A program made the translations under genes and the position numbers. Below, in pieces: positions 17,379 through 30,702 of a stretch of DNA of 31,698 bases. The DNA comes from a virus (Duplodnaviria; Heunggongvirae; Uroviricota; Caudoviricetes). Numbering within the stretch: position 1 is the first letter of the stretch; the number at the start of each line of letters is the position of its first letter. The stretch spans positions 1-31,698 of the IMG/VR virus record IMGVR_UViG_2565956729_000013. One strand, given 5' to 3'. The notes below the pieces were generated by a model that worked only from the letters and a program-made list of their open reading frames with translations, did no database searches and was not told the DNA's origin.

Positions 17379-19166
17379 ATGGCGTACTCTGATGAAGTGA
17401 TTGCTGCAGCAAAATCACTCTATCTGAAAAGGCACACCCCAAAAGAAATACAAAAGAAGCTCGGACTGAACAGCCCGCGAATTGTTTATTACTGGGCGAC
17501 AAAGTTTGAGTGGTACACACAGCTTAATACTGAGGGCGTGGAGGATGTCATCGCCCGGCGTCTCGCTGTACTGGCGGAGCGTGACCATAAAACCCAGGAA
17601 GAGCACGATGAACTCGATCGCCTGATTGGCCACCACGTCAAACTGATGTCGGTCAGGAACAAGCACACAGAACGAATGGCCGAGATAGAACGAATGGGGG
17701 CTGATATTCCCCGGTCTGGCCGTTATGCAAAAGAAGAGCGCGGAGAAAAAGACGCGGATAAGAAAGAGCGTCGTCGTAAAGCTAATGATGTGTCAGGGCT
17801 GACAGCAGAGAGTTTTGAGCCGTTTACCAAAAAACTGTTCGCTTATCAGTTGCACCTGCGTGAAAACAAATTCCGTCGTGTACGCAACCTGCTTAAATCG
17901 CGCCAGATTGGGGCGACATATTACTTCGCGTTTGAGGCATTTGAAGGTGCGGTATTAACCGGCGACACACAGATATTTTTATCGGCATCAAAACGTCAGG
18001 CCGAAGTGTTCCGCACCTATATCGTTAAGATTGCACAGACGGAATTTGGCATTCCCATTAAAGGCAACCCGGTTAAGTTAAGTAATCTGGCTGAACTGTA
18101 TTTTCTGGCGACCAACAGTAACACGGCGCAGTCAAACAGCGGCCACCTGTACATTGACGAATATCTGTGGATCCCCGGCTTTCGTCGCCTCAATGAAGTG
18201 GCGTCCGGTATGGCCACCCACTCGCACTGGCGCATTACCTACTTCTCCACGCCGTCAACCAAAACCCATCAGGGCTATCCGTTCTGGTCCGGCGATGAAT
18301 GGCGCAAAGGCGATCCGAAACGAAAAGGGGTTGAGTTTCCGTCCTTTAATGAACTGCGCGATGGCGGGCGTGAATGCCCGGATGGCCAGTGGCGCTATGT
18401 GGTTACGCTGGAAGATGCCATTGCCGGCGGCTTTAACCTTGCTGACATCAACGAGCTGCGCGAGCGGTACAACGAAACAGCGTTCAATATGCTGTTTATG
18501 TGTGTGTTTGTGGATGACAAAGAGAGCGTCTTTAAATTCGATGACCTCGTGCGCTGTGGCGTTGATGTCAGTACGTGGGAGGATTTTCACCCGGAAGATG
18601 CCATGCCATTTGGTAACCGTGAGGTGTGGGGTGGCTTTGACCCTGCGCGCTCCGGCGATAACGCCACGTTTGTGGTGCTGGCACCGCCGCTGGTTGCGGC
18701 AGAACGATTCCGCGTGCTGGAAAAACACCACTGGCGCAGTATGTCATTCCAGTTTATGGCAGAGCGTATCCGCAGCATTAAGGCGCGCTATAACATGACA
18801 TTTATCGGCATTGACGTCACCGGTCTTGGCTACGGTGTCTTTGAGCTGGTTCAGGGATTTGCCCGCCGTGAAACAGTGGCCATTCATTACAGCGTGGAAT
18901 CCAAAAACCGCCTGGTGATGAAGATGCTGGATCTGATTTACGCCAACCGTATTGAGTGGGATGAAGAAGCCACAGATATTCCGGCATCATTTCTGGCTAT
19001 CCGTCAGGAATCCACTAACAGTGGCAATAAAGTCACTTTTACCGCCGAACGTAGCGAAGAAACCGGGCACGCTGACATCTTCTTTGCCATAGCTCATGCC
19101 GCAAGTAATGAACCCCTGAACTATAAGCACAAGCGCAAATCAACATGGATCCTGTCAGATGAGTAA
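17379..19166 (+). CDS. terminase large (ATPase) subunit (P2 P-like)
   Basis: 595 aa, size and N-terminus typical of P2 gpP; followed by overlapping portal gene. Confidence 0.9.
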   Translation: MAYSDEVIAAAKSLYLKRHTPKEIQKKLGLNSPRIVYYWATKFEWYTQLNTEGVEDVIARRLAVLAERDHKTQEEHDELDRLIGHHVKLMSVRNKHTERMAEIERMGADIPRSGRYAKEERGEKDADKKERRRKANDVSGLTAESFEPFTKKLFAYQLHLRENKFRRVRNLLKSRQIGATYYFAFEAFEGAVLTGDTQIFLSASKRQAEVFRTYIVKIAQTEFGIPIKGNPVKLSNLAELYFLATNSNTAQSNSGHLYIDEYLWIPGFRRLNEVASGMATHSHWRITYFSTPSTKTHQGYPFWSGDEWRKGDPKRKGVEFPSFNELRDGGRECPDGQWRYVVTLEDAIAGGFNLADINELRERYNETAFNMLFMCVFVDDKESVFKFDDLVRCGVDVSTWEDFHPEDAMPFGNREVWGGFDPARSGDNATFVVLAPPLVAAERFRVLEKHHWRSMSFQFMAERIRSIKARYNMTFIGIDVTGLGYGVFELVQGFARRETVAIHYSVESKNRLVMKMLDLIYANRIEWDEEATDIPASFLAIRQESTNSGNKVTFTAERSEETGHADIFFAIAHAASNEPLNYKHKRKSTWILSDE

Positions 19167-20193
19167 AAAGAAAAAATACCCCGTGCTACACGATGGCGTG
19201 GCAAAAAAAACAGCCAGCAAAATGGCGTTTATTGAATTTGGTGACCCGGAACCAGTCGCTGCATGGGGCTGTTATTACGGCTCGCTCTGGGATGGCTATA
19301 ACGGCTGGTACACGCCGCCCATTGAGCGCATGGATCTCGCCATGTTGTCCAATATCGCACCGTATCACGGCGCGGTATTGCGTGCGCGCGTCAATATGAT
19401 CATGCAGGGTTTTCGGGGCGGTGGGGGTATGACACACGCAGCCATGGCGGCAGCGGTGACCAATCTGCTGATATTCGGGGATATGGGGCTGCTTAAAGTG
19501 CGTAACGGCTTCGGGCGGGTGGTGCGCCTGCATACGTTGCCGTCGCTGTACCTGCGGCGCAACAATGAGGGTGGCACGGTGATTGTGCAGGCGGCACTGG
19601 AAGATCTCGTTTATCCGCCAGGTGAAGTGGTGTTTGTGGCCATTTATGACCCGCAACAGCAGGTTTACGGTGTCCCGGATTATATCCACGGGATGGAATC
19701 AGCCATGCTGAATGTGGATGCCACTCGCTTTCGCCGCAAGTATTACAAGAACGGCGCACATCTTGGTTATATCCTGTATTCCACTGACCCGGACATGGAT
19801 CCCGAGCTCGAGGCGGAATTTCGTAAAAAGATAGAGGCGTCAAAAGGGGCGGGCAATTTTAAATCCATGTTTATCAATATACCAGGTGGAGACAAAGAAG
19901 GCGTTAAGGTGATCCCTATCGGGGATTCAGGCACAAAAGATGAATTCCTGAATATAAAAACCATCAGTGCCCAGGATCAGCTCGTGGCGCACCGTTTTCC
20001 ACCCGGACTTGCCGGCATCATTCCCGCAAATACGGCCGGGTTGGGTGATCCGCTGAAATCCCGTGAGGCCTATTACCGGGATGAGGTTATTCCGATGCGT
20101 CGCCTGATTATGGAGGGGATCAACAGCGACCCGGATATCCGGAGACTGGGGCAGGTGGAATTTATTCTTGAATTTAATGAAGCCACGGAGTGA
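19159..20193 (+). CDS. portal protein (P2 Q-like)
   Basis: 344 aa, same length as P2 gpQ; ATG overlaps the last codons of the terminase gene. Confidence 0.9.
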   Translation: MSKKKKYPVLHDGVAKKTASKMAFIEFGDPEPVAAWGCYYGSLWDGYNGWYTPPIERMDLAMLSNIAPYHGAVLRARVNMIMQGFRGGGGMTHAAMAAAVTNLLIFGDMGLLKVRNGFGRVVRLHTLPSLYLRRNNEGGTVIVQAALEDLVYPPGEVVFVAIYDPQQQVYGVPDYIHGMESAMLNVDATRFRRKYYKNGAHLGYILYSTDPDMDPELEAEFRKKIEASKGAGNFKSMFINIPGGDKEGVKVIPIGDSGTKDEFLNIKTISAQDQLVAHRFPPGLAGIIPANTAGLGDPLKSREAYYRDEVIPMRRLIMEGINSDPDIRRLGQVEFILEFNEATE

Positions 20194-20258
20194 TGTGCGA
20201 CATGGAGAAGGAGCGGGTAAAATCAGCAGCAGTAAAACGTTGTTCCGGGAGGTGGAAA

Positions 20259-20516
20259 ATGCGCAGACAGAAAGCGCGGTGTCATTGCTGTGGTGCTCGT
20301 GCAGTGATTGAGAAAACAGCCTGGAAAACCGATCGGTTTGCTGATGTGTATTACCGTTGCACGCGTCTTGAGTGTGGGCATACCTGGGTGATGAACCTGA
20401 CCTACTCGCACACACTGGTGCCCAGTGGACTGGAGAATGGCGTGTTAAAGCTGTTGATTGAACGGATGCGCCCGGAAGAAAAACAAATGGCTCTGGAGTT
20501 ATTGCAGGTCGGATAG
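20259..20516 (+). CDS. ogr: Ogr/Delta-family zinc-finger late transcription activator
   Basis: ATG at 20259 preceded by GGGAGGTGG RBS; 85 aa with CxxC...CxxxxC pattern (CHCCGARA ... RCTRLECGH). Confidence 0.7.
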   Translation: MRRQKARCHCCGARAVIEKTAWKTDRFADVYYRCTRLECGHTWVMNLTYSHTLVPSGLENGVLKLLIERMRPEEKQMALELLQVG

Positions 20517-20536: not shown

Positions 20537-20591
20537 AACCCGGAACGGGCGCACAAAGAATTTGCGCACCCGTTCCGGGTTTTCTTATTTA
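20537..20591 (+). terminator. rho-independent terminator after ogr
   Basis: Near-perfect 16-18 bp GC-rich stem (AACCCGGAACGGGCGCAC / GCGCACCCGTTCCGGGTT) followed by TTTTCTTATTT. Confidence 0.7.
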
Positions 20592-20944
20592 ATGGCAGAC
20601 AACTGATAATTTGTGTCTTCCTGCAGGCTGGTTAAAGAAATATTATCCAGTGCAGCCAGAATAACGTGCTGTGTATATAATCCGGAACATTTCATTGCCC
20701 GGACAATATCACCAACACTGTAATTTTCTTTTGTCGGGATATATCCACCACCCGGGCCGCGTGTGGCTTTTACCAGGCTACTTTCCCGTAAATATCTGAA
20801 TATTTGCTCCAGATATGACAGTGACACGGTTTCTTTGCTTAATTGCCGGAGCGAGATTGGCTTTCCGGTGTACTGTTTCACAAATTTAATCATTACCATA
20901 ACTGCAACTGATGCACGCTGGCTTCCGGAATTATCTTTCATCAT
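20585..20944 (-). CDS. Rrf2-family transcriptional regulator
   Basis: Signature ISLSYLEQIFRYLRESSLVKATRGPGGGY; ~119 aa from the MMKDNSG start; lacks the IscR-type Cys cluster; AT-rich DNA. Confidence 0.8.
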   Translation of the reverse strand: MMKDNSGSQRASVAVMVMIKFVKQYTGKPISLRQLSKETVSLSYLEQIFRYLRESSLVKATRGPGGGYIPTKENYSVGDIVRAMKCSGLYTQHVILAALDNISLTSLQEDTNYQLSAIK

Positions 20945-20955
20945 GATTACTTCCA

Positions 20956-21243
20956 TTAATGGCATAAATTGATGGAGCGGGTCAGTGAATAAAGAGGCAA
21001 TACATTCCATCCCTTAGAGCGCCAGCTGTCTGCAACATCTTTACTTCTTGTTATCGCCGGTATTCCAATAGGATTATTTGCGTGCATCCATGCCACTGGC
21101 TCTGCTTCCAGTGATGCAAGTGCGATTTCCAGTGCGATTAACATATTGTGATCGTCTTCATCAAGACCGAACGGGATGTCTTCGCGCCACGATTTAAACT
21201 CTGTGATTTTACGTTGTAACCATTCTTTGGTAATGGTGGACAT
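20956..21243 (-). CDS. hypothetical protein (95 aa)
   Basis: ATG at 21243 (MSTITKEWLQ...) with AGGAG RBS; track start at 21261 is GTG; AT-rich accessory region. Confidence 0.5.
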   Translation of the reverse strand: MSTITKEWLQRKITEFKSWREDIPFGLDEDDHNMLIALEIALASLEAEPVAWMHANNPIGIPAITRSKDVADSWRSKGWNVLPLYSLTRSINLCH

Positions 21244-21257
21244 AGTTACTCCTGTTT

Positions 21258-21572
21258 TCACTTCGGGAAAAACGCCTGAATATTCTTTTTCACCTGCTGC
21301 ATATGGGGGGCGTTGTCTGCTGCTGGTTGCGCCGGTTTTTCAGGCTGTACTGGTAGCGGTGGCATCCGTATTTCGTCTTCTGACCATTCTGCCAGCGAAT
21401 ACGCCAACGCGGGGGTGCGTTTTATAAGAGCCAGTCCGGCCAGAAAAGCCGCGCGTTGTGCGCGGCTGCGTTCGGAGGCTGGCAGGCTGTCGAGGTAACT
21501 GCACGCCTCCCGTTCGCTCTTGACGACGGCGGGCTTCAGATAGAAACTTATTCGTCTGGTTGGTGTCGTCAT
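21258..21572 (-). CDS. parR: ParR-like centromere-binding protein
   Basis: 104 aa; DSLPASERSRAQRAAFLAGLAL resembles recalled R1 ParR DSIPQGERSRLNRAALTAGLAL; AAGGAG RBS; directly downstream of parM. Confidence 0.7.
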   Translation of the reverse strand: MTTPTRRISFYLKPAVVKSEREACSYLDSLPASERSRAQRAAFLAGLALIKRTPALAYSLAEWSEDEIRMPPLPVQPEKPAQPAADNAPHMQQVKKNIQAFFPK

Positions 21573-21576
21573 TGAT

Positions 21577-22536
21577 TTACTCCTTGTCCATTGCGTACAG
21601 CCCATTAACCAGAGCAAACTGTGGCACCCCGTCCGCGATGAAAGTCGCATTAACTCCGCAGGCTTCGCGGATAGCGGGTGCCACAATCTTCGCTCCTCCA
21701 CCTACAACCATCACCCGCCCGTAACCCGAAAAACCCGCCAGCGCGCGGATCACGCGTTGTTTCAGTGTTTCCTCCTTTTCACGAATAACTGCCATCAGGC
21801 TGGCGTAATGTGCGTTATTGTGGATGTGCTGGCGCAGCCAGGCTTCATCGTGGCGATGTTCGATAATGGTATTAGCGATGTGGTGACTGGTACGCATACC
21901 GTTGGTGGCCATCACCGACAGCACGGCATCGGCCATCAGAGAAACGCCTACGTGTGGATCGCAAAACACCTGGCTGATACCTGCCAGTTGCCCCTGAACC
22001 TTTGCCACATCCAGCGTGGTTCCGCCCAAATCCACAATCAGCAGGGATTCAAACGGACTCATGTCAGCCAGCGCTTTAAAGCCAGCCGGAATGGATTCAG
22101 GCATAACCCGCACGTTACGGATAGTGAATGCCTCACCGTTCTGGTACTCCACCGGGCGCATAACGTTCGCTTTTTTGCGGTTGATGTTGGCCATGTCCGG
22201 CTGTGCGTTTGTGTCGAAATACTCGCTCAGTGGCAGGGTGACAACCACATCCACCTCCTGAGGCGTGATGCCTGATTTGACCAGCGCGTGATGAATGGCA
22301 ATGACATTCACATCGCTGTACTGGTATTGCGTGTCGGTCGTCTGGACAAAGCGATCGCTGACCGGATCAAAACCATAGCGCACGCCATCAAGCATGTAGT
22401 TCGCGGGCTGCGTGCCACCGAACGGCGCAGACCATTCCGACTTGAAGCTGTTCGGGCTGATGGCGTTGCGGCGTTCGCCGTTCTCAGTCCATGCCAGTTT
22501 GATGTTGGTGGAGCCGTCGTCGATACAAATTTTCAT
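21577..22536 (-). CDS. parM: ParM/StbA actin-like segregation ATPase
   Basis: 319 aa; motifs IDDGSTNIKLAW, YSDVNVIAIHHAL, VMPESIPAGF, LIVDLGGTTLD, GYGRVMVVGGGA match recalled plasmid R1 ParM along its full length. Confidence 0.85.
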   Translation of the reverse strand: MKICIDDGSTNIKLAWTENGERRNAISPNSFKSEWSAPFGGTQPANYMLDGVRYGFDPVSDRFVQTTDTQYQYSDVNVIAIHHALVKSGITPQEVDVVVTLPLSEYFDTNAQPDMANINRKKANVMRPVEYQNGEAFTIRNVRVMPESIPAGFKALADMSPFESLLIVDLGGTTLDVAKVQGQLAGISQVFCDPHVGVSLMADAVLSVMATNGMRTSHHIANTIIEHRHDEAWLRQHIHNNAHYASLMAVIREKEETLKQRVIRALAGFSGYGRVMVVGGGAKIVAPAIREACGVNATFIADGVPQFALVNGLYAMDKE

Positions 22537-22564
22537 GTCGATTTTCCTTATGTTGATTAATTAA

Positions 22565-22679
22565 TCGTTTACGGGATTCTGAAATCCCGTTCTTGCCTGT
22601 TTTGTACGCGCCTCATATTTCGCCGCGTGTTTTTTGCTCATTTACGGGATTTGTGAATCCCGTTTTTGTCTGTTTTTTG
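22565..22679. repeat. parC-like centromere/promoter repeats upstream of parM
   Basis: Two ~40-bp direct repeats (22565..22604 and 22638..22679), each with a dyad ACGGGATT-N4-AATCCCGT (22570..22589; 22643..22662), then a T-rich CTGTTTTGT segment. Confidence 0.55.
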
Positions 22680-25435
22680 TTTCCACTGGTTAGTCCACCC
22701 CGCAGCAGCTCTGCTTTGCGGCGGACGCGTTCAGTGGTTTCACTGATTCTCTGTGCGTGCTCTGCGTCACGGATGGCACGCAGCATGTCAGAAAGCACGG
22801 TAACGGGTGTTTTCATGGTGTTCTGGTCCTGCTGAAGTGTGGATGCCAGGCGTGCGGCGGCTTCGGGGTCTGATGCCCTCAGCTGTGCCAGATAGCTGGC
22901 GACCGGGTTATGACGGATCTCCGTGCTGCTTACGCCGTGATTACGGCTCAGGCGCTGCCAGAGCTGCGTGATTCGGCTGTCCGGGCGGGTATCCGGTTTG
23001 CGTACAATTTCAAATCCCTGCGGTGCAATGATGCTGCCGTCAACGTACAGACTGCCGCCCCGTAACAGGTGCTGCATCTGCTGTTCACCGATATGCAGGC
23101 CAAGGGATTCAGCAGACTCCCGCCATTCTTTAGCGAGTAATTCGTGGTTATCAGGCAAAGGCCGCTGCTGTTTGCGGCTCTGTGTCCAGCTCTGCATTTC
23201 ATCACTGCTGTTTTTTGCCTGTTTGTCACGCAGCGAACGCATCAGCGCCCGGCGTTCGTGCCGTTTCAGTGAGCGCATCCATTCATTCACGTCAACGCTG
23301 TCAGGAAGCTGCGGCCACGGTGCTGGCCGTTCTTCCGGCTGTTCTGTCCCGTTGTTGTCCGTTTCCTGTACACGGGGACAGTTATTGCCACGAGTCCAAG
23401 GGGCGGCAGGGCCGCCCTGAAGGTCAAAACCATTTTCGTGGGCGTTGTCTTCCGGTTCTGGTTTACGTCTTACCAGCTTCCAGTTATCCGGATGCGTGCA
23501 CACACGGGAGGATTCCCCGATGAGTGGTGACCAGATCCCGTAAATCTGTACGCTCTGTTCGCCGTAATCATTCAGCTCATCTGCGAGGTCGTAGGCGGTG
23601 CGAATCAGGTAGTCTTTGCGTGGAACAAGTACGCCGCCCTGTTTCTCAATGTAGGTGGCAAAACACCCGGCATCAGCGGCAGCGAGTACCGCATCCATTG
23701 CATCATCCTTCAGCCGTTGTGGGCCTTCCGGGTTGCGTGCCATCTGGCTGGCAAGGCGGCGCAGTTCACGCCACACCTGACGGGAGGGGATGCCAAAGAA
23801 CTGGAACTGGCGGACCCGGTGAAGGCGCGCCCAGCCGATGGCGCGTTCCACACTCTCGGCCATTGATTTTCCGGTTTCGTGGTCAACGCGTGGCTTGCCC
23901 GTTTTCGGGTCGATGCCATCCACGGCGCGGCTGTCCAGGTTCTTTCCGATGTAGGTGGCGATGTAGCTGGTTGGCGTGCCTTTTGAGCCGTCGACGTACT
24001 CCGCCTTAAAACGCGGAGTTATGTCATCGCCCAGCTCGTGGCGGTCTTCCTGAATGGCAATATCGCAGACGTGGGACACGATGGTTTCAATCTCGTCAGG
24101 ATGAGCAAAAACCATCATGTGCCAGTGCACCGTGCCGTCATGATGAGGCTCCACCGTGCGGATGCCATACCAGCGCAGGCCGTCGCGGTTCAGTTTTTTG
24201 CGGACCGCCGCAAAAAACGTGTTAACCAGGTAATCGCTGGAGTCGCGCATAGTGGCCCCGTTCCATTTGGGATTCGGATGACCGTTCTCCGTTGTTGCGT
24301 GGTATTTTGACGGGCAGGTGACAGTCAGAAACACCGCTCTGTCGCCACGGGCTTCGGCCAGAAGTTCCAGCCCCTTCATGGTGGCCATCATTTCTGCCTT
24401 ACGGTGAACCGGGTTACTTACTCCCGCGTAATACACTGTATCGAGATCAATCGTGAACCCGTCTTCGTTTTCCAGCATGAAACTTTTCAGGAAATCGCGT
24501 GTTTTCTCGCGCTGTGCGCGAAACTCGCTTAACGCGTTCTGGCTCAGATAGGGTGATGTTTTTCTGGAAACCAGACAGGCGGCGCGGAGTTGTTCTTCTC
24601 TCCACTCGCAACGTAACAGCCACAGTTTGCGTTTCCACCAGTCCGCACAGGTCAGGCGAAGGATTGCGCCCGGCAGCAGCTCCGTGTCTGGTTCGTTCTT
24701 CCGGTCTTTGTCTGTTGTCAGTGCGTCATAATACGGCGGCACGGTGTGCAGATGTAACGCCATGCGGGCCAGCATCTGATACACCTTCAGCGTTATATCC
24801 ATAGTCAGCTCGCCATCGGTCGCGCCAAAGCCATCGCAGAGCTTTTCGAAGGTGCTGCTGAACATCGCCGCCGTCATGGTGGCCAGCGTCTGTATCTGGT
24901 GCTTGTTGAGCTGTGGCAGGTACAGCAAATCGTCCAGGCGTTCACGTCCGGCAAGGGAGCGATAACCCGGAGTCAGCCAGTGACGGTCGGTGCAGTCCAG
25001 ACGTTCGAATATTTTGCGCAGGGTTCCGTGCGCGTAACGTTCAGCCTGCCAGTTCTTTTTTCCTTTCCGGCGATCGGCTTCCTGTTTTTTGCGCAGGAAG
25101 GAGAGGTGGCGAATAAGCGGATCGCGCAGATAGGACGGCAGCAGGCGCAGCGAGGCCATGGCTTCATCCACCGCGCCGCGTGCCTGTCTTCTGGCGTCTC
25201 CTGCCAGCGTGATGGTTTTGTCCTGTTTTTCCTGTGCGTCCAGGCTTTTATTAATCAGGTTGCCCAGCGGCGTGGCGGAGAACGCCGCATCAGCCATTTC
25301 CTGGCGGCGCTCGTTCTCTGCCCGGTAGGCATCCAGCCAGGAGGAAAGCGCGGATTCAGGAGCGGGGATCCCCGTTCCTTCACGCCCCACTGCGTGGCGC
25401 GGTTGTTGCCAGTCCCTGATGTACTCTGCCGTCAT
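22613..25435 (-). CDS. replication initiation endonuclease (P2 A-like rolling-circle initiator)
   Basis: 940 aa; metal-binding motif HWHMMVF typical of the family; 3' end overlaps the second parC-like repeat. Confidence 0.8.
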   Translation of the reverse strand: MTAEYIRDWQQPRHAVGREGTGIPAPESALSSWLDAYRAENERRQEMADAAFSATPLGNLINKSLDAQEKQDKTITLAGDARRQARGAVDEAMASLRLLPSYLRDPLIRHLSFLRKKQEADRRKGKKNWQAERYAHGTLRKIFERLDCTDRHWLTPGYRSLAGRERLDDLLYLPQLNKHQIQTLATMTAAMFSSTFEKLCDGFGATDGELTMDITLKVYQMLARMALHLHTVPPYYDALTTDKDRKNEPDTELLPGAILRLTCADWWKRKLWLLRCEWREEQLRAACLVSRKTSPYLSQNALSEFRAQREKTRDFLKSFMLENEDGFTIDLDTVYYAGVSNPVHRKAEMMATMKGLELLAEARGDRAVFLTVTCPSKYHATTENGHPNPKWNGATMRDSSDYLVNTFFAAVRKKLNRDGLRWYGIRTVEPHHDGTVHWHMMVFAHPDEIETIVSHVCDIAIQEDRHELGDDITPRFKAEYVDGSKGTPTSYIATYIGKNLDSRAVDGIDPKTGKPRVDHETGKSMAESVERAIGWARLHRVRQFQFFGIPSRQVWRELRRLASQMARNPEGPQRLKDDAMDAVLAAADAGCFATYIEKQGGVLVPRKDYLIRTAYDLADELNDYGEQSVQIYGIWSPLIGESSRVCTHPDNWKLVRRKPEPEDNAHENGFDLQGGPAAPWTRGNNCPRVQETDNNGTEQPEERPAPWPQLPDSVDVNEWMRSLKRHERRALMRSLRDKQAKNSSDEMQSWTQSRKQQRPLPDNHELLAKEWRESAESLGLHIGEQQMQHLLRGGSLYVDGSIIAPQGFEIVRKPDTRPDSRITQLWQRLSRNHGVSSTEIRHNPVASYLAQLRASDPEAAARLASTLQQDQNTMKTPVTVLSDMLRAIRDAEHAQRISETTERVRRKAELLRGGLTSGNKKQTKTGFTNPVNEQKTRGEI

Positions 25436-25441
25436 AGTGAT

Positions 25442-25807
25442 TTACTTCGTCATGCCATTCAGGGTGTCGCGGCAGACTGTAGCCAGCCGCTGAATTTCCA
25501 GCACGGTGTCTTCTGTGTCGGCATGGCGATGTGTGATGCGGATGCTGTCGGCAATCACATCGACGATTGCAGAGGATGGGCGCTGGTAAATGCCAATAAC
25601 GGACGGGGTGCCACCTTCAATGCGGTAAAGCCTGTAATTTCCCTCGTGGCTGTCAATCATGTAGCGACCGTCAATAACAATCTTTCCGTCAGCGAGCTGC
25701 GGTACAGGCAGGGATTTCAGGTACATGTCATAACGTTCACGCACGCGAACGGCAAGATCACGCTCTGTGTTGAGCAGGTATTCAAGAAAGTCGTTGGCGA
25801 GAATCAT
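25442..25807 (-). CDS. hypothetical protein (121 aa)
   Basis: AGAGGA RBS; stop 7 nt before the A start. Confidence 0.55.
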   Translation of the reverse strand: MILANDFLEYLLNTERDLAVRVRERYDMYLKSLPVPQLADGKIVIDGRYMIDSHEGNYRLYRIEGGTPSVIGIYQRPSSAIVDVIADSIRITHRHADTEDTVLEIQRLATVCRDTLNGMTK

Positions 25808-25879
25808 TGCGGCAATCCTCTGGTTACTGATGTGCGAAGGCCTCCCGCCGCAAGGTGCAGGAAGGGCCCGGAACAGGAA

Positions 25880-26110
25880 TTAATGGAGTTTGTTTTGCTG
25901 CTGGATGAGATCCTGAAGAGACAGGAGGTCTTCCGCCAGATAGCTGAATACAGCGGCGCAGTAGTCGGCTGAAATAGTGCTGTTGAGTCTGTGCAATGTG
26001 TTGGATTGCATGATAAAGGCGATGTGTGCGGCGCGGGTGAGTCTGCGATCGATTTCAGTCTGGATGTGACGACGCTCCGCGATAGCGCGGTGCTGTTTGC
26101 GGTTTGCCAT
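25880..26110 (-). CDS. hypothetical protein (76 aa)
   Basis: AAGAGG RBS upstream of ATG at 26110; first gene after a 368-bp non-coding gap. Confidence 0.5.
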   Translation of the reverse strand: MANRKQHRAIAERRHIQTEIDRRLTRAAHIAFIMQSNTLHRLNSTISADYCAAVFSYLAEDLLSLQDLIQQQNKLH

Positions 26111-26447
26111 GGTGTGGCCTCTTTGGTTGTAAGTTTTGAAAACTCACCATCCAGAGGTGGAAAACTCGGGGTGGTGAGACGTACAGGGTTTCCACAACCG
26201 GCAACTACAGAACCCGGCCCGACCGAAGTCGGCCCCATACGCCCCACCATAATTCGTGTGCGAAAAAGACGTGGCGATACGGTACGCACAAAAAAACCGC
26301 TGGCGCGGTTGTGCGCTTTGGTTGTCAGCGGGGTGGAAATCCCGGCACCCGTTTTATGAGGTGCAGCGGAAATGTAACCTGACTGATTGCGGCATGGCAA
26401 GTGGTTTTTTTGTGAGAACGGCATACTAAAAAAATCCTGATACTGCT

Positions 26448-26472
26448 CCGGCCAGCGATTTTCACTGGCCGG
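26448..26472 (-). terminator. putative terminator hairpin after the SPFH gene
   Basis: 8-bp GC-rich stem CCGGCCAG / CTGGCCGG with 9-nt loop, 6 nt past the stop; the T-run on the transcribed strand is ~14 nt distal, so non-canonical. Confidence 0.4.
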
Positions 26473-26478
26473 GTTTAA

Positions 26479-27303
26479 TTACTTCACCGGAACAAACGGA
26501 ACAGCGGTGTTGCTGGTCATGTATTGCGGCAGCGTGCCGTTCCATTTGTTGATTGCTTCCAGCTCCATAACGCCGGGATTCTGGCGCAGAGCTTCACCGC
26601 GTAAACGAATGGCGTCGGCTTCAGCCTGGGCTTTTGTGCGAATGGCATCAGCCTGTCCGGCAGCTTCTGCGCGCAACATGTTGGCTTCTGCTTCACGTTG
26701 CTTGACTTCCTGTTCGCGTTGCAGGGTTTTCTGGTTTGCCGTGACTTTGGCATTAATGCTGTCGATAACGGTTGACGGGTACTCCGGCTTACCCACATAT
26801 GAGAGGCTCATTACCTGAATACCGATGGGTGTCATTTCCTCCTGAATGTCTTTAAGAGCTGCATCCAGTAGTTCAGATTTCCCTCCGTCGATAAATTTGT
26901 CGGTGGTCATTTTGCTGGCCAGTCGGTTGAGTGCATCGGCGATCTTCTGGCGCAGGTCAGTGTCGGTAATGTCATCCACGCCTTTGCGGTAGGTCTGAAA
27001 CACTGTAGTAACTTTGGATGGATCAACCTTGTAGGCCACACCGATGTGATAGCCGATGGTTGTGCCGTCACTCATCTGGAAGCTGAACGGCTCATCGTAG
27101 GCCTTCATTTGTTTGAAGGTCGGGAAGATGTAAACCTCGGTATTCCAGCCAGTCCAGTAGCGGCCAACGCCAACCACTTCGCCGACGCCTTTGTCGTCGC
27201 CCAGTTTGTTGACTTTGATGCCCACATTACCTGGCTCAACGCGATCGCAACCAACCAGGAAGATGGCGGCAAAAAGCGGGATAACCGGAAAGAGTTTTTT
27301 CAT
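26479..27303 (-). CDS. SPFH/band-7 (stomatin/prohibitin-like) lipoprotein
   Basis: 274 aa; signal peptide with lipobox LVGC; SPFH-like core then Ala/Glu/Arg-rich coiled-coil tail; start overlaps upstream stop (ATGA). Confidence 0.8.
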   Translation of the reverse strand: MKKLFPVIPLFAAIFLVGCDRVEPGNVGIKVNKLGDDKGVGEVVGVGRYWTGWNTEVYIFPTFKQMKAYDEPFSFQMSDGTTIGYHIGVAYKVDPSKVTTVFQTYRKGVDDITDTDLRQKIADALNRLASKMTTDKFIDGGKSELLDAALKDIQEEMTPIGIQVMSLSYVGKPEYPSTVIDSINAKVTANQKTLQREQEVKQREAEANMLRAEAAGQADAIRTKAQAEADAIRLRGEALRQNPGVMELEAINKWNGTLPQYMTSNTAVPFVPVK

Positions 27304-27503
27304 GGTTTGATTTCCTCAATGTATTTACTGAAAAAGCGAACAACGCCTGCCGGGTACAGCATGGCAATGAAAATGCCCAGCAATACCAGGAAGGAGCTGT
27401 CTGATGAAATCATTCGGGGGAGTAGTCCTGCATACAGAATGAGAGAAACGAGGACGCATACCAGCGCCCACATGTATGCGCGAAACCAGGTCTTTTTGTT
27501 CAT
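27300..27503 (-). CDS. small two-helix membrane protein, coupled to the SPFH gene
   Basis: 67 aa with two hydrophobic segments; translationally coupled to downstream SPFH gene. Confidence 0.6.
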   Translation of the reverse strand: MNKKTWFRAYMWALVCVLVSLILYAGLLPRMISSDSSFLVLLGIFIAMLYPAGVVRFFSKYIEEIKP

Positions 27504-27514
27504 GCTGCGATCCC

Positions 27515-27814
27515 TTACTGGTTAAGGAAAAAATCAAAAACGTTATTGATGCGTTGTAATAACTCGCGCTGTATTGCTTCCGGTGTTTCCGGTTCGCCAG
27601 GTGAACCCAGCGTTGCGCAGAAATCAGCGATTTCATGATGGAGCGTCAGGCGAATGGCTGGAGCCATGGTTCTGGCGTGCTCCAGCTCATCCAGCAGTGC
27701 CAGCACAGCAGACGGCGAGAGCATTGCGCGAAACGCCAGTAATTTTTGATGCGTTGCCATTCGTTGCAGGCCAGTCGCCAGTTCGCGTAGCTTCTGGTGG
27801 TTGATGGTGCTCAT
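27515..27814 (-). CDS. hypothetical protein (99 aa)
   Basis: Start overlaps upstream stop (ATGA); part of the coupled early cassette. Confidence 0.55.
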   Translation of the reverse strand: MSTINHQKLRELATGLQRMATHQKLLAFRAMLSPSAVLALLDELEHARTMAPAIRLTLHHEIADFCATLGSPGEPETPEAIQRELLQRINNVFDFFLNQ

Positions 27815-28056
27815 GCTCTGGCTTCCTTCAGTAGCTGGTTAAACATGCGGGTGAGTGGGTTGCTGCACCCGAACGGCATCGGGTTTACCTGGTAAGAGAA
27901 CCGACCGCCTGTTTTGCGTTCTTCTCTGATGACTAAGCCGTCGCGCCAGAGTCGGCGTAACTCCGCATTAATGGTTGTGGTTGGGGTATTCAGTGCTGCG
28001 GCGATTTCTCCACCGCTACAACCCGGATTGGCGGCGATGTAGTCCAGAATGGTCAT
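27811..28056 (-). CDS. winged-helix DNA-binding protein (putative regulator)
   Basis: 81 aa; wHTH-like segment GEIAAALNTPTTTINAELRRLWRDGLV; ATGA coupling to the upstream gene. Confidence 0.55.
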   Translation of the reverse strand: MTILDYIAANPGCSGGEIAAALNTPTTTINAELRRLWRDGLVIREERKTGGRFSYQVNPMPFGCSNPLTRMFNQLLKEARA

Positions 28057-28256
28057 CTGCGTGACTCCTGTACCTGTCGGATAAGGTTCACCCGCGCCAC
28101 ATTCGTGGCGCAGAAGTAAGTGCCGTCAGTGAGATAGATGTGATGTGCATCTTTTTCTGAACGGTGTTTGTCGATAGTGGTAATCAGGCGTTCGTCGACC
28201 TCGTATTCGCGCCCTCTGGAGGTAAAGCGAACGACGGGAAAATGCTTAATTGCCAT
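28053..28256 (-). CDS. hypothetical protein (67 aa)
   Basis: ATG at 28256 (MAIKHFPVV...) with AAGAGAG RBS; track start at 28274 is TTG. Confidence 0.45.
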   Translation of the reverse strand: MAIKHFPVVRFTSRGREYEVDERLITTIDKHRSEKDAHHIYLTDGTYFCATNVARVNLIRQVQESRR

Positions 28257-28279
28257 TACGCTCTCTTTGTCCAATAGCC

Positions 28280-28690
28280 CTATGCGTTAAATACGGCACG
28301 TTGCGTGCCATCAATGAATACGGCCTGAGTGCGTTCTATCAGGCGGAGATTTGTCAGAACTTCTGACTCTCTTACGGGGTAAGGGGTAATCAGGTATTTG
28401 TCCTGCAATTCGGCGATAATGATGTATTGCTGTAGCTCCGAGCCAATAATATGAATAAGGTGTCCAATGTCAGATAAATTCAGTCTGGTGGTTGGTTGTG
28501 TTTTGAGAACCGTTAGTTCAGCATCCTGTTTTTCGATGATTTCGGCTGCTTCGGCGGTTATTCTTGTTATCATCATGGCCGTGGTGGCAGGCCCAATCAT
28601 TCCTGCATTTGTTGCATCCTGAATGGCTCTGTTTGCGGTCTCCGATATATTTTTTAGCGCAGTTACAATGCCTTTTTCTTTTGCGTTCAT
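28280..28690 (-). CDS. hypothetical protein (136 aa)
   Basis: GGAG RBS; preceded by ~95-bp AT-rich gap that may hold an internal promoter. Confidence 0.5.
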   Translation of the reverse strand: MNAKEKGIVTALKNISETANRAIQDATNAGMIGPATTAMMITRITAEAAEIIEKQDAELTVLKTQPTTRLNLSDIGHLIHIIGSELQQYIIIAELQDKYLITPYPVRESEVLTNLRLIERTQAVFIDGTQRAVFNA

Positions 28691-28783
28691 TTTTGTATCT
28701 CCGTTATTTACGTGTGCGAATACCTCCGCTAATGCGGATGGTTTTCACGTTTTCTTATTTAATCTGGTGTTTTGTTTGTGCTG

Positions 28784-28897
28784 TTATTCGTCAGAGAAAA
28801 AACGTTCAATCTTTTTCACTGAATGAATAATTCGCATAATCCCAATGGCGCAGGCCACCGAAATAATCAGAACAATCCATGACATAAATATACTCAT
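28784..28897 (-). CDS. small hydrophobic peptide (37 aa), putative
   Basis: Manually translated: MSIFMSWIVLIISVACAIGIMRIIHSVKKIERFFSDE; ATG overlaps upstream stop (ATGA); below track size cut-off. Confidence 0.35.
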   Translation of the reverse strand: MSIFMSWIVLIISVACAIGIMRIIHSVKKIERFFSDE

Positions 28898-29136
28898 GCG
28901 ATATTCCCCAGCTTATACGGTTCAATATGTTCTCCGCATTCTGCGGCGCAGACGAGTTCGGAAAGTTCGTTAAGTGCATCCAGATCATCAGCGTAAAAAG
29001 CCACGTCATACAGACTCCGGATTGCCCTGGTCAATGAGTCACGGGCTGCACGTTCAGCATGAGCGCCTGATGCACTTAAGCGAAAATAAAAACGCTCAAG
29101 TGCTTTGTTAATGAGAGTTTTATATTCTTTGCCCAT
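28894..29136 (-). CDS. hypothetical protein (80 aa)
   Basis: ORF in the early operon; 13-bp palindrome TTTTCCCGGAAAA just upstream. Confidence 0.5.
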   Translation of the reverse strand: MGKEYKTLINKALERFYFRLSASGAHAERAARDSLTRAIRSLYDVAFYADDLDALNELSELVCAAECGEHIEPYKLGNIA

Positions 29137-29156
29137 TGCATTTTCCCGGAAAACAA

Positions 29157-29411
29157 TTAAACAAAATCTCTTAATGGTTTACCTGATTCAATGCGCTCAA
29201 TTGCATCGTTAATGGCCATGTATGCGGCGTGATCACCTGCATAGCGTGCGCATTCCTGTAGTGACTTTAATCCGCTGATAGTATCGCTTTTTGCTTCCGA
29301 TAAAGGTTTCACCGTATTTAATGCATCACGGGCATTATTATCTATGAGTCGGTGTATGATAAGAGTGTAGGCCGAGGCTATCTCTACCATGTTTTTTGTC
29401 GTTGTTGCCAT
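29157..29411 (-). CDS. hypothetical protein (84 aa)
   Basis: Tightly packed early-operon ORF (3-nt gap to upstream gene). Confidence 0.5.
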   Translation of the reverse strand: MATTTKNMVEIASAYTLIIHRLIDNNARDALNTVKPLSEAKSDTISGLKSLQECARYAGDHAAYMAINDAIERIESGKPLRDFV

Positions 29412-29414
29412 TGG

Positions 29415-29765
29415 TTAATTCCCCCGTGGATGCTGAAAACTACGTCCTGCAATTAAGCGGTCAACCGTGCGTAGCGCTTCGTACAATGTAAAATCCTGTC
29501 CGAACTGATTGTCGCCGTTGCTCAGTGCAAAAATGCGGTTTCCGGTAAACGGATTGCGTGGGCATTTGTGGACCGCGATTCCAGCTTTCTCAATCAGCCA
29601 GGTGTGCTCGCCGATTTGTTTTACGGGGTAGCCATCCGGCGTTGCGTGTGTTTCGCTCAGGCTGTAGCGAGAGTTGCTGCGTGATGCACTGGTAGCGAAA
29701 CGGTTAGCATGGCGTTCTGCACCGTTGCGGAAGCGCTGCTGTGGAGAATTACGCCGCTCCTTCAT
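29415..29765 (-). CDS. hypothetical protein (116 aa)
   Basis: First ORF downstream of cox in the early operon. Confidence 0.5.
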   Translation of the reverse strand: MKERRNSPQQRFRNGAERHANRFATSASRSNSRYSLSETHATPDGYPVKQIGEHTWLIEKAGIAVHKCPRNPFTGNRIFALSNGDNQFGQDFTLYEALRTVDRLIAGRSFQHPRGN

Positions 29766-29802
29766 ATCAAAATACTCCGTCTAAAATGAATTATGGTTTG
29801 GG

Positions 29803-30228
29803 TTATGCTGCTTTACCGCTGATGTTTCTGTTTCGTCTGCCACTTGTTGGCTTAAACAAAAACAGACGGTTTTCCCAGTCGTGCCATTCCTGAGGTGCGT
29901 TTTCGATGAGGCGATCGCATGCTTCATCCCACGCTTTTCTGTTGATGTAGAGTTCAGCGTTTCCGCCTGGCTTGAGAGGGTCCGCCATATACACCGCAGG
30001 TAGCTTTCCTGCTTTTGCCATGCTTACGATGGCATCAACGGTCTTTCCGATATACATCGCAAATCCTTCTTTTGACAGGAGATGCGAGGGATTTTCTGAA
30101 AGTCGAATTTCTTCACGTTCACGTGCTTTGCGTCCTGTTTTTTGATGCTCACCTTCTGGCATTTCTGACAGGTGATCGCATCGTGTTCCGCAAAGTGACT
30201 CAGGCGCGTTTTGAGTGCTTTCTTGCAT
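29803..30228 (-). CDS. cox: Cox-like excisionase / early-promoter repressor
   Basis: GFAMYIGKTVDAIVSMAKAGKLPAVYMADP resembles recalled P2 Cox EFAKLIGKSTGAVRRMIDKGKLPVIDMTDP; ATG at 30228 has GGAGG RBS (alternative ATG at 30162); divergent from C. Confidence 0.7.
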   Translation of the reverse strand: MQESTQNAPESLCGTRCDHLSEMPEGEHQKTGRKAREREEIRLSENPSHLLSKEGFAMYIGKTVDAIVSMAKAGKLPAVYMADPLKPGGNAELYINRKAWDEACDRLIENAPQEWHDWENRLFLFKPTSGRRNRNISGKAA

Positions 30229-30636: not shown

Positions 30637-30702
30637 CGGTTCACCAGGCATTTATTTCCCAGAGCTGTGATCAAGATGATGTTTTCATTGGAGGGCTTCC
30701 TT

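What the first reader, a model, noticed from the sequence alone, without database searches (positions are those of the whole stretch)
20585..21243. AT-rich accessory island encoding an Rrf2 regulator and an unknown 95-aa protein
Between the ogr terminator and parR the DNA is visibly more AT-rich and encodes an Rrf2-family regulator (GPGGGY signature, no Cys cluster) plus an unknown protein. Rrf2 regulators are normally host redox or nitrosative-stress regulators, unusual phage cargo.
Basis: partly seen in the sequence, partly recalled or inferred. Interest (0 to 1): 0.5.

Follow-up and report, generated by a model that had tools for sequence, protein, structure and literature searches.

The report
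Sensor-less mini-Rrf2 cargo in P2-like prophage
A small AT-rich two-gene cassette sits in the well-known variable "cargo slot" of a P2-family prophage and encodes a shortened IscR-like DNA-binding protein that has lost its iron-sulfur sensor, plus a truncated Ea22-type phage protein; it is real accessory cargo, already catalogued but never tested, and only moderately unusual.

Summary
Window 20585-21243 carries two minus-strand genes at 42.8% GC against 51.7% for the window. They lie between parR and a strong hairpin terminator shared with the convergent ogr gene.

The distal gene (119-123 aa) passes Pfam's Rrf2 threshold. It matches only the winged-helix half of the profile. A 22-residue deletion removes the Cys92/98/104 cluster loop of IscR, while IscR's base-contacting residues are kept. 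It belongs to a small clade of 104-123 aa proteins whose examined members all lie in phages or prophages, so it is not a recent host capture.

The 95-aa protein is the N-terminal module of the mosaic Ead/Ea22/DUF550/DUF551 phage proteins, without their C-terminal domain.

The cassette occupies the gpA-gpQ hotspot of P2-like phages. It is present in about 3% of P88-like prophages in complete E. coli genomes. Near-identical phages carry other cargo at the same junction. The exact arrangement is listed, untested, in Table S5A of Rousset et al. 2022.

My inferred mechanism is a signal-blind dimeric DNA-binding regulator, co-transcribed with parMR, that recognises IscR type-2-like operators. Defence, lysis-lysogeny control and decay remain rivals. 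Interest is modest.

The parts
20585..20944 (-). Mini-Rrf2 gene (119 aa from ATG 20944; alternative starts 20956 = 123 aa, 21010 = 141-aa ORF). It encodes a winged helix-turn-helix plus a shortened dimerisation helix and has no Fe-S ligand loop.
   Evidence: Pfam Rrf2 E 3.9e-13, profile positions 2-87 of 132. Full-length match to phrog_24072, E 2e-47. Best PDB sequence match is E. coli IscR 4HF0/4HF1. AF2 model pLDDT 83, TM 0.70 to apo-IscR. A 22-residue gap relative to IscR. dN/dS about 0.10 against the Salmonella copy.
20956..21243 (-). orf95: an Ead/Ea22/EaA/DUF551-type N-terminal module protein. It has a helical hairpin, the 'IALASLEAEPVAW' linker and a small alpha/beta module, and it lacks the C-terminal domain of its longer relatives.
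   Evidence: PHROGs 660, 60 and 5117. tblastn hits to Ea22/EaA/DUF551 genes. Alignment A6. AF2 pLDDT 85. Only phage proteins match its fold and no solved structure does. AGGAG ribosome-binding site and ATG.
20537..20581 (.). Hairpin with 21-nt arms between the convergent ogr and rrf2 genes. It is a likely bidirectional terminator and marks the left edge of the cargo slot.
   Evidence: Folding, inverted repeat I1, and a + strand terminator hit. Homology with the alternative-cargo prophage ECL27977 ends at window 20583.
21258..21572 (-). parR (Plasmid_stab_B), immediately upstream. The stop-to-start gap to orf95 is 14 nt. The right-hand homology break with P88-like phages lies in its variable linker, at about 21375-21420.
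   Evidence: Pfam call, alignment A1 and megablast breakpoints.
21577..22536 (-). parM (actin-like segregation ATPase), the first gene of the presumed parM-parR-orf95-rrf2 transcription unit.
   Evidence: StbA_N and ParM domains, E 1e-82 and 4e-68.
22565..22676 (.). Two 39-nt direct repeats (22565-22603 and 22638-22676), each holding the 20-nt palindrome ACGGGATT..AATCCCGT. This is the presumed parC/ParR operator and promoter region that could drive the operon.
   Evidence: The same palindrome is present in rrf2-less P88, 569R5 and E2348/69 prophages, so it belongs to parMR and not to the Rrf2-like protein.
20259..20516 (+). Ogr/Delta-type zinc-finger late activator, convergent with the cassette. 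The ORF may start further upstream, at 20190. It belongs to the late module, not to the cargo.
   Evidence: Pfam Ogr_Delta. Same position after the portal gene in Yersinia phage YenM_324 and Cronobacter phage ESSI-2.

Best explanation
What it is. The region is a two-gene accessory cassette in the gpA-gpQ variable hotspot of a P2-family prophage. The prophage has a P88/Xuanwuvirus-type early region joined to a K139/ESSI-2-type late region.

How it is expressed (inferred). The cassette is tacked onto the 3' end of the parM-parR operon and ends at a hairpin terminator shared with ogr. It would therefore be transcribed whenever parMR or the early operon is.

The distal gene. It encodes a 'mini-Rrf2', an IscR-derived winged-helix protein.
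- The Fe-S-binding loop and part of the dimerisation helix have been deleted (shown).
- It should therefore act as a constitutive, signal-blind dimeric DNA-binding regulator (inferred).
- The residues with which IscR reads type-2 operators (Ser40, Glu43, Gln44) and the Arg59 position of the wing are conserved across the whole mini-Rrf2 clade (Ser/Glu invariant, Gln/Arg in at least 90% of rows). Its most likely targets are therefore IscR type-2-like CC...GG palindromes, probably in the host chromosome (inferred).

The proximal gene, orf95. It is a truncated Ead/Ea22-type module protein under weak constraint. It is probably an oligomerising or adaptor remnant rather than an enzyme (inferred).

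Origin. Both genes come from the accessory gene pool of lambdoid early regions (exo-xis/ea and nin).
For: Accessory status and hotspot.
- The cassette is absent from sequenced P88-like phages.
- Other occupants of the slot include an AAA ATPase with an S8 peptidase, two hypothetical proteins, and an Ead/Ea22 pseudogene.
- It occurs at 51 of about 1536 places.
- Alternative cargo sits at the same junction in ECL27977.
- The hotspot is defined in PMC9122126. [quoted passage not shown]

Operon structure.
- The gaps are 14 nt and 11 nt, with ribosome-binding sites.
- There is no minus-strand terminator between parR and rrf2, and no internal promoter above chance (1 found against 3.0 expected).
- A strong hairpin follows rrf2.

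Mini-Rrf2.
- The Rrf2 call comes from Pfam, NCBIfam and PDB searches.
- The 22-residue deletion covers the IscR Cys92-Cys104 region.
- Positions S47, E50, Q51 and R66 correspond to IscR S40, E43, Q44 and position 59. S47 and E50 are invariant, and Q51 and R66 are kept in at least 90% of rows, across 22 clade members that are 31-50% identical (apart from one 98%-identical copy).
- The role of S40, E43 and Q44 in type-2 recognition is taken from PMC5411485.
- The AF2 model has pLDDT 83 and retains helices 92-104 and 108-120 after the wing. Its best PDB matches are apo-IscR and IscR-DNA complexes.
- Purifying selection is indicated by dN/dS of about 0.10.
- Relatives sit in lambdoid early-left and nin regions.

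orf95.
- Family assignment rests.
- The N-terminal module is swapped in the variant L020, while the 50 C-terminal residues and rrf2 stay identical.
Against: - No binding site has been identified. A scan of the window for the IscR type-2 consensus (motif recalled from memory) gave 3 hits against 4.5 expected by chance.
- The DNA specificity is inferred from four residues only.
- The score is below NCBIfam's Rrf2-superfamily cutoff (53 against 73 bits) and far below the IscR equivalog cutoff (59 against 207).
- Dimerisation of the shortened helix has not been modelled.
- Transcription from the parMR promoter, and expression in the lysogen, are untested. No promoter was recognised upstream of parM by the simple scan.
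- orf95 has dN/dS of 0.72 from only 11 substitutions, so it may be decaying.
- The location in a defence hotspot fits a defence role equally well.
Confidence: 0.5

Rival explanations
1. The cassette is an anti-phage defence or superinfection-exclusion system, like old/tin of P2 and the many systems found in the gpA-gpQ hotspot. The DNA-binding protein would sense or repress an incoming phage.
For: - The cassette sits exactly in the hotspot where Rousset et al. found and validated defence systems.
- Other P88-like prophages carry defence-like cargo there, for example an AAA ATPase with an S8 peptidase in E2348/69.
- The Salmonella variant adds a 209-aa membrane protein next to it.
Against: - There are no PADLOC hits for either protein.
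- No effector or enzymatic domain is present. Both proteins are small, one a DNA binder and the other a module remnant.
- Relatives of the mini-Rrf2 lie in early lytic operons of lambdoid phages, not in defence islands.
- The same paper notes that the hotspot also holds non-defence genes such as partition systems and cdt toxin.
Confidence: 0.15
2. The mini-Rrf2 is a regulator of the phage's own development, affecting the lysis-lysogeny decision or induction as Ea22 and other exo-xis genes do. It would act on phage promoters rather than host genes.
For: - Both genes derive from the lambdoid early-region pool, whose members (Ea22 and others) shift the lysis-lysogeny balance (PMC7093339 and PMC10834534).
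- The cassette lies at the end of an early operon.
Against: - The recognition residues are conserved across unrelated phages (lambdoid and P2-like). This argues for a common target, probably in the host, rather than co-evolving phage operators.
- No repeated palindrome specific to rrf2-carrying phages was found. The palindromes upstream of parM also occur in phages that lack rrf2.
- 97% of P88-like prophages manage without it.
Confidence: 0.2
3. The cassette is hitch-hiking or decaying DNA with no current function, a recombination scar from lambdoid phages.
For: - orf95 lacks the C-terminal domain of its relatives and ends in a 10-residue tail running into the rrf2 leader.
- Its dN/dS is 0.72.
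- The low GC content suggests foreign DNA.
- Deleted prophage remnants exist.
Against: - rrf2 is intact and annotated as a CDS in all 37 full-length E. coli copies, in E. albertii, in Salmonella and in 10 IMG/VR contigs.
- Its dN/dS is about 0.10, from 8-9 synonymous against 3 non-synonymous changes.
- Both genes have good ribosome-binding sites.
Confidence: 0.1
4. One reading: a host-type redox or nitrosative-stress Rrf2 sensor, recently captured by the phage.
For: The family assignment to Rrf2. The nearest characterised relatives are IscR, CymR and NsrR.
Against: - The sensory loop is deleted, and there is only one Cys, which is not conserved.
- The protein sits in a clade of short proteins whose seven examined members are all in phages or prophages.
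- The best cellular homologues match only about 63% of the length, at about 45% identity.
Confidence: 0.05

Closest known systems
E. coli IscR (Rrf2 family; PDB 4HF0/4HF1/4CHU), particularly its apo form
   Same: - Same winged helix-turn-helix fold (Foldseek TM 0.70, probability 1.0).
- The recognition-helix motif SLSYLEQ-F and the RGPGGGY wing are identical.
- The equivalents of S40, E43, Q44 and position 59 are kept.
- Cluster-free IscR is itself an active DNA binder at type-2 sites (PMC5411485).
   Different: - It is 119-123 aa rather than 162 aa.
- A 22-residue deletion removes the Cys92/Cys98/Cys104 loop and the start of the dimerisation helix. His107 is not deleted: it aligns just after the gap, to a residue that is not His in the mini-Rrf2, and the C-terminal tail is absent.
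- It scores 59 bits against an equivalog cutoff of 207.
- It is phage-encoded and not linked to isc or suf genes.
- It cannot switch between holo and apo states.
CymR (B. subtilis / S. aureus), a cluster-less Rrf2 regulator
   Same: An Rrf2 fold without an Fe-S cluster. It is a structural match.
   Different: CymR keeps the full-length architecture, with 129-143-residue crystallised chains against 119-123 aa here. From my own knowledge, CymR is controlled by complex formation with CysK. No such partner or length is seen here.
Short Rrf2-like proteins of temperate enterobacterial phages (phrog_24072; e.g. Citrobacter phage Chris1 'IscR', Klebsiella phage Kp4865-4)
   Same: Same length class (104-123 aa), same deletion and same conserved residues, with 38-54% identity over the full length.
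   Different: Those copies lie in lambdoid early-left (cI-to-int) or nin regions, next to unrelated small genes. Here the gene sits at the end of a parMR operon in a P2-family phage. I found no characterisation of any member in the searched literature.
Lambda Ea22 and the Ead/Ea22, EaA (DUF550) and DUF551 mosaic proteins of lambdoid phages
   Same: orf95 shares their N-terminal helical leader and the ALASLEAEPVA linker, plus a middle module 55-73% identical to Ea22/DUF551 proteins. The family is known to be mosaic (PMC10834534).
   Different: orf95 has no C-terminal domain, and Pfam gives no hit at E below 0.1. The long coiled coil of lambda Ea22 is not present. The pro-lysogenic activity of Ea22 cannot be transferred to it.
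old/tin and other cargo of the P2 gpA-gpQ hotspot (Rousset et al. 2022)
   Same: Same genomic slot, the same pattern of presence and absence among near-identical phages, and low GC content.
   Different: There is no recognisable defence domain. The cassette is co-oriented with the upstream operon and apparently co-transcribed with it, rather than being an independent unit.

Membership tests
Rrf2 family (Pfam PF02082 / NCBIfam TIGR00738) | N-terminal winged helix-turn-helix with the recognition helix and the GPGGGY wing | tested here: met
   Pfam E 3.9e-13, residues 30-112 of the 141-aa ORF. Aligned to IscR residues 8-84. AF2 secondary structure is consistent with helix-turn-helix plus a beta-hairpin wing.
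Rrf2 family (Pfam PF02082 / NCBIfam TIGR00738) | Score above the curated family threshold | tested here: inconclusive
   The Pfam threshold is passed (50.1 bits against 30). The NCBIfam rrf2_super threshold is not (53.4 against 73.3). Only profile positions 2-87 of 132 are matched.
Rrf2 family (Pfam PF02082 / NCBIfam TIGR00738) | C-terminal long dimerisation helix giving a homodimer | tested here: inconclusive
   The model keeps helices 92-104 and 108-120, and a conserved ALD-V motif aligns with the end of IscR's helix. The helix is shortened by the 22-residue deletion. The dimer itself was not modelled.
Fe-S-sensing Rrf2 regulators (IscR, NsrR, RirA, RsrR) | Three conserved Cys (plus a fourth ligand) binding a [2Fe-2S] or [4Fe-4S] cluster | tested here: not met
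   The loop holding Cys92/98/104 is deleted. One Cys remains and it is not conserved in the clade.
IscR equivalog (TIGR02010 / NF008110) | Full-length similarity above the equivalog cutoff | tested here: not met
   59.2 bits against 207.55, and 46.2 against 275.
IscR equivalog (TIGR02010 / NF008110) | Base-contacting residues Ser40, Glu43 and Gln44 (roles from PMC5411485), plus the Arg59 position of the wing (role recalled from memory) | tested here: met
   S47, E50, Q51 and R66 align to these positions. S47 and E50 are invariant, and Q51 and R66 are kept in at least 90% of rows, in the mini-Rrf2 clade. The roles of S40, E43 and Q44 come from PMC5411485. DNA binding itself was not tested.
Ead/Ea22-like mosaic phage proteins (orf95) | Shared N-terminal leader and ALASLEAEPVA-type linker | tested here: met
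   PHROGs 660 and 60, E 3e-18 and 9e-17. tblastn to Ea22/EaA/DUF551 genes. The motif is nearly invariant in alignment A6.
Ead/Ea22-like mosaic phage proteins (orf95) | Central coiled coil and a C-terminal domain (lambda Ea22 CTD, DUF550 or DUF551) | tested here: not met
   No Pfam hit at E up to 0.1. The protein ends after the 'PLY' linker, where relatives continue.
Cargo of the P2-like gpA-gpQ hotspot | Located between replication gene A and portal gene Q, with variable occupancy among closely related phages | tested here: met
   The hotspot definition is in PMC9122126 and the arrangement is listed in its supplement.
Anti-phage defence systems | Homology to a known or candidate defence protein | tested here: not met
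   No PADLOC hit at E up to 0.1 for either protein.
Anti-phage defence systems | Protection against phage infection | not testable with these tools
   This needs plaque assays. The arrangement was not among those cloned by Rousset et al..
parMRC operon (as an extended transcription unit) | Co-transcription with parM-parR from a ParR-controlled promoter in parC | not testable with these tools
   The sequence is compatible with it: the same strand, 14-nt and 11-nt gaps, no intervening minus-strand terminator, and palindromic repeats upstream of parM. There are no expression data.

The most novel reading that the evidence does not exclude
Temperate enterobacterial phages carry a dedicated clade of 'sensor-deleted' IscR mimics. 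By occupying IscR type-2 operators regardless of cellular Fe-S status, these proteins would lock part of the host IscR regulon (suf, hya, and in pathogens fimbrial, capsule and T3SS genes) into an apo-IscR-like state, either in lysogens or during induction. Many carriers here are ETEC and STEC strains. That would make this a new way for a prophage to rewire host physiology or virulence.
Probability: 0.2. Interest if true: 0.6.

Novelty: new variant of a known kind. Interest (0 to 1): 0.3.

Why it matters
If the mini-Rrf2 really reads IscR-type operators without being able to sense Fe-S status, it would be a compact natural 'constitutive apo-IscR' delivered by prophages. That would be a handle on how phages manipulate iron-sulfur homeostasis and IscR-controlled virulence traits. 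It would also be a minimal scaffold for studying Rrf2 DNA recognition separately from cluster chemistry.

If it is not that, the result is still useful housekeeping. It shows that this catalogued but untested hotspot arrangement is built from lambdoid early-region modules rather than from a recognisable defence system. It also shows that the 'unknown' partner is an Ea22-type remnant.

Tried and rejected
- PADLOC scan of both proteins and of ogr: no hits.
- IscR type-2 consensus scan of the window (A-N3-CC-N2-A-N7-TA-N-GG-N3-T, recalled from memory, up to 1 mismatch): 3 hits against 4.5 expected, none near promoters. This gives no support for self-targets in the prophage.
- Promoter scan: the only sigma-70-like hit on the minus strand lies inside orf95, and the total is below chance (1 against 3.0). 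There is no evidence for an independent promoter.
- Rfam: nothing in 20.4-21.4 kb.
- PDB sequence and fold searches for orf95: no significant match.
- Search for a conserved partner of the mini-Rrf2 across seven other phage contexts: the neighbours are unrelated to orf95 and mostly to each other. The pairing is therefore lineage-specific.
- The palindromes upstream of parM as possible Rrf2 operators: rejected, because they occur in rrf2-less P88, 569R5 and E2348/69 prophages.
- Comparison of orf95 with the window's other small early genes at 27.3-27.8 kb: no similarity.
- Profile-based locus search with the clade alignment failed because no stretch was conserved enough. A single-sequence search returned only copies at least 98% identical, plus two distant hits covering only about 38 residues (44-46% identity).
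- Literature searches for phage-encoded Rrf2 or IscR proteins found nothing relevant. One apparent hit was ISCR insertion elements.
Full report
**1. What is in the sequence**

The window is a P2-family prophage read in reverse orientation. The gene order is:
- tail and head genes on the minus strand up to about 17.2 kb;
- large terminase (17379-19166) and portal (19159-20193) on the plus strand;
- an Ogr/Delta zinc-finger gene (to 20516, plus strand);
- on the minus strand, the two genes of the finding, then parR, parM, a 940-aa GpA replication endonuclease and the early genes;
- an integrase running off the end.

Within 20585-21243 there are two co-directional minus-strand genes.

- The 95-aa gene runs 21243-20956. 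AGGAG lies 5 nt before its ATG. It starts 14 nt after the parR stop codon.
- The Rrf2-like gene follows. The maximal ORF starts at 21010 (141 aa). However, a TAATG stop/start overlap lies at 20956, and an ATGATG preceded by GGAAG lies at 20944. PGAP calls the 119-aa version in near-identical prophages. Relatives begin at the equivalent position. I take 20944 as the start.
- The stop at 20585 is followed at 20581-20537 by a hairpin with 21-nt arms. Its dG is -45 kcal/mol on this strand and -39 on the other (z -6.7 and -4.7). A T-tract follows it on the ogr side.

GC is 42.8% across the finding, against 51.7% for the window and 52-57% for the flanking genes. Only 3% of equally sized windows are as low.

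**2. The cassette is accessory and sits in a known hotspot**

- The parM-parR-gpA DNA is 93-95% identical to P88, vB_EcoM-569R5 and other Xuanwuvirus-type phages. The match stops inside the variable linker of parR, at about 21375-21420. Nothing to the left of that point matches any phage or plasmid record at high identity.
- In P88 and 569R5, other small genes occupy the interval between parR and the portal gene.
- In complete E. coli genomes, the parMR-gpA segment is found at 1536 places in 1373 genomes. The cassette is found at 51 places in 45 genomes, about 3%.
- Sampled alternatives in the same slot include an AAA ATPase with an S8 peptidase (E2348/69), two hypothetical genes (55989), an IS3 with a rearrangement (O157:H7) and an Ead/Ea22 pseudogene.
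- The late module of this window is only about 67% identical (DNA) to its nearest sequenced phages, Yersinia YenM_324, Cronobacter ESSI-2 and K139. In YenM_324 and ESSI-2 (the two whose annotation was inspected) an Ogr-type gene follows the portal gene directly. So ogr belongs to the late module, and the prophage is an early/late hybrid.
- Among the 46 E. coli places that match this portal-to-parR segment, 41 carry the cassette, wholly or in part. Five records, from three strains, have about 1.35 kb of unrelated DNA with two other small ORFs instead. In those records homology ends at window position 20583, immediately after the hairpin.
- Three other records carry the cassette inside prophages with internal deletions.

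The interval between gpA and gpQ is the defence and diversity hotspot of P2-like phages described by Rousset et al. 2022 (PMC9122126). [quoted passage not shown] It was not tested.

All copies I could find have the same context. They include copies in E. albertii and Salmonella and in ten IMG/VR contigs.

Two variants are informative.
- One E. coli variant has three Ea22-type small genes before rrf2.
- The Salmonella variant has an extra 209-aa membrane protein between rrf2 and ogr.

In the first, the N-terminal module of the gene adjacent to rrf2 is swapped. Its last 50 residues and rrf2 stay identical. The stable unit is therefore '...ALASLEAEPVAW-middle module-stop + rrf2'.

**3. The Rrf2-like protein**

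Family assignment:
- Pfam Rrf2 is passed (50 bits against a cutoff of 30), but only profile positions 2-87 of 132 are matched.
- NCBIfam's best hits are IscR (59 bits), the Rrf2 superfamily (53 bits) and CymR (49 bits). All are below their cutoffs.
- The best solved relatives by sequence are E. coli IscR structures.
- An AlphaFold model has pLDDT 83 and pTM 0.75. It shows the winged helix-turn-helix followed by three short helices. It matches apo-IscR and IscR-DNA complexes best (TM about 0.70), then CymR, RsrR and NsrR.

The deletion. Aligned to IscR, the protein and its short relatives lack 22 residues. These correspond to the Cys92-Cys98-Cys104 loop and the beginning of the dimerisation helix. 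His107 aligns just after the gap and is not conserved as His. The alignment resumes at the conserved 'ALD-V/I' end of that helix. A single Cys remains and it is not conserved.

The recognition residues. The recognition helix (SLSYLEQ-F) and the wing (RGPGGGY) are identical to those of IscR.
- S47, E50, Q51 and R66 correspond to IscR Ser40, Glu43, Gln44 and Arg59.
- These positions are invariant or nearly so across 22 clade members that are only 31-50% identical, apart from one 98%-identical copy.
- According to PMC5411485, Ser40, Glu43 and Gln44 read the major groove of type-2 sites. Glu43 contacts the CC dinucleotides. Cluster-free IscR binds type-2 sites. NsrR has different residues at these positions.

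The clade.
- A word-index search of 5.8 billion proteins found only two clusters at least 98% identical and one at 51%. Below that it fell to cellular IscR-like proteins that match the winged-helix part only.
- The exhaustive search of 1.8 billion representatives found about 15-25 short proteins (mostly 95-123 aa) that align over the full length.
- PHROGs has a matching family, phrog_24072, with E 2e-47.
- Where context is available, these genes lie in temperate lambdoid phages. Some lie between the cI-type repressor and xis/int (Chris1, Kp4865-4, L024, L028). Others lie after the replication genes in a nin-like block (L010, L025).
- Their neighbours are not related to orf95.

Selection. Against the Salmonella copy, rrf2 shows 8 synonymous and 3 non-synonymous differences, for a dN/dS of about 0.10.

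**4. The 95-aa protein**

- It has no Pfam, NCBIfam, PADLOC or PDB match.
- It matches PHROGs 660, 60 and 5117 and hundreds of enterobacterial prophage proteins of 86-166 aa. Many of those carry a C-terminal DUF551 domain or are named Eaa or Ea22.
- The alignment shows an N-terminal helical leader, the nearly invariant linker IALASLEAEPVAW, and a middle module (NG-GIPAITRSK-VADSW-SKGW-V-PLY). orf95 then stops, where relatives continue into further domains.
- The model (pLDDT 85) is a helical hairpin plus a small alpha/beta unit. It matches only predicted phage proteins, such as the leader of a MazZ-domain protein, DUF551 proteins and N15 gp45.
- The mosaic nature of Ea22 genes and their shared N-terminal segment are described in PMC10834534.
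- Its dN/dS against the Salmonella copy is 0.72, on 11 substitutions.

I read orf95 as a truncated module protein. Any function it has would be oligomerisation or adaptor-like.

**5. How it most likely works**

Shown:
- It is an accessory cassette in the gpA-gpQ slot.
- The gene order and spacing are compatible with one transcript from parM to rrf2, ending at the shared hairpin.
- It encodes an intact, selectively constrained IscR-derived winged-helix protein without a sensory loop.

Inferred:
- The protein forms a dimer through the shortened helix.
- It binds DNA constitutively.
- It recognises CC...GG type-2-like operators. The recognition residues are conserved among phages with unrelated regulatory circuits, so those operators are more likely host than phage.
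- Expression follows the parMR promoter, and hence possibly the lysogen. This presumes that the palindromic repeats at 22565-22676 are parC. They also occur in phages lacking rrf2.

I found no candidate operator in the window.

**6. Rivals**

- A defence or exclusion role is suggested by location only. There is no defence homology and no effector.
- A role in the phage's own lysis-lysogeny control is plausible by analogy with exo-xis genes. It is not favoured, because the recognition residues are shared across unrelated phages.
- Decay is plausible for orf95 but not for rrf2.

**7. Novelty and verdict**

The gene is annotated in RefSeq as an Rrf2-family regulator. The hotspot is published, and the arrangement is listed in a supplement. 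I found no characterisation of any phage mini-Rrf2 in the searched literature.

What is new here:
- the recognition that it is a loop-deleted, IscR-type protein belonging to a clade of short proteins found, wherever context was examined, in phages or prophages;
- the finding that its partner is an Ea22-type remnant;
- the finding that the cassette is an appendix to parMR.

That makes it a new variant of a known kind, of modest interest (0.3). There is perhaps a 20% chance that it is an IscR-regulon mimic, which would be considerably more interesting.

Noticed in passing
window 22565-22603 and 22638-22676: Two 39-nt direct repeats lie 73 bp apart, each containing the 20-nt palindrome ACGGGATT(N4)AATCCCGT. 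One is just upstream of parM and the other is inside the 3' end of the gpA ORF. They are likely the parC centromere and ParR operators of the phage partition system. They are also present in P88, 569R5 and E2348/69 prophages.
   Followed up: partly
window 1-20516 versus 21400-31698: The prophage is a hybrid. The early region (int to parMR) is 93-95% identical to P88/Xuanwuvirus phages. The late region (595-aa terminase, 344-aa portal, with ogr fused after the portal gene) is only about 67% identical to its nearest sequenced phages (Yersinia YenM_324, Cronobacter ESSI-2, K139). No isolated phage in the collection has this late module.
   Followed up: partly
window 26167-26254 and 26290-26364 (minus strand): There are Rfam hits above gathering score to C4 antisense RNA (79 bits) and isrK Hfq-binding RNA (64 bits). 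This is a P1/P7-type immunity RNA pair in the early region, near an 'ash family' gene in related prophages.
   Followed up: no
window 20190-20516 (+): The start of the ogr gene is ambiguous. PGAP aa from 20259. Other callers give 104 aa. The ORF from GTG 20190 (108 aa) overlaps the portal stop, as do the 106-aa homologues in YenM_324 and ESSI-2. The PHROG 603 match covers residues 2-106, but the N-terminal 23 residues are poorly conserved.
   Followed up: partly
window 21258-21420 (parR 3' part): The ParR linker (residues about 64-96) is hypervariable among P88-like prophages, while the N-terminal ribbon-helix-helix region and the C-terminal tip (NIQxxFPE) are conserved. The recombination breakpoint that delimits the cargo slot lies within this linker.
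   Followed up: partly
L016 4946-5575 (Salmonella Newport prophage): In the Salmonella variant, a 209-aa protein with hydrophobic stretches that look like transmembrane segments is inserted in the opposite orientation between rrf2 and ogr. It has a weak DUF6338 match (E 5e-5, below cutoff). It may be an exclusion or abortive-infection-type gene.
   Followed up: no
L005 1181-4464 (E. coli E2348/69 prophage): [quoted passage not shown]
   Followed up: no
L013 6716-8072 (E. coli ECL27977 prophage): Alternative cargo sits in an otherwise near-identical hybrid prophage. There are two small minus-strand ORFs (95 and 92 aa) with no Pfam hit, plus about 220 bp inserted between the ogr stop and the conserved terminator hairpin.
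   Followed up: partly
window 28231-29440 and 30591-31690: These are the other low-GC stretches of the window (39-42% GC), in the early/immunity region and in the integrase gene. The finding is therefore not the only AT-rich patch of the prophage.
   Followed up: no
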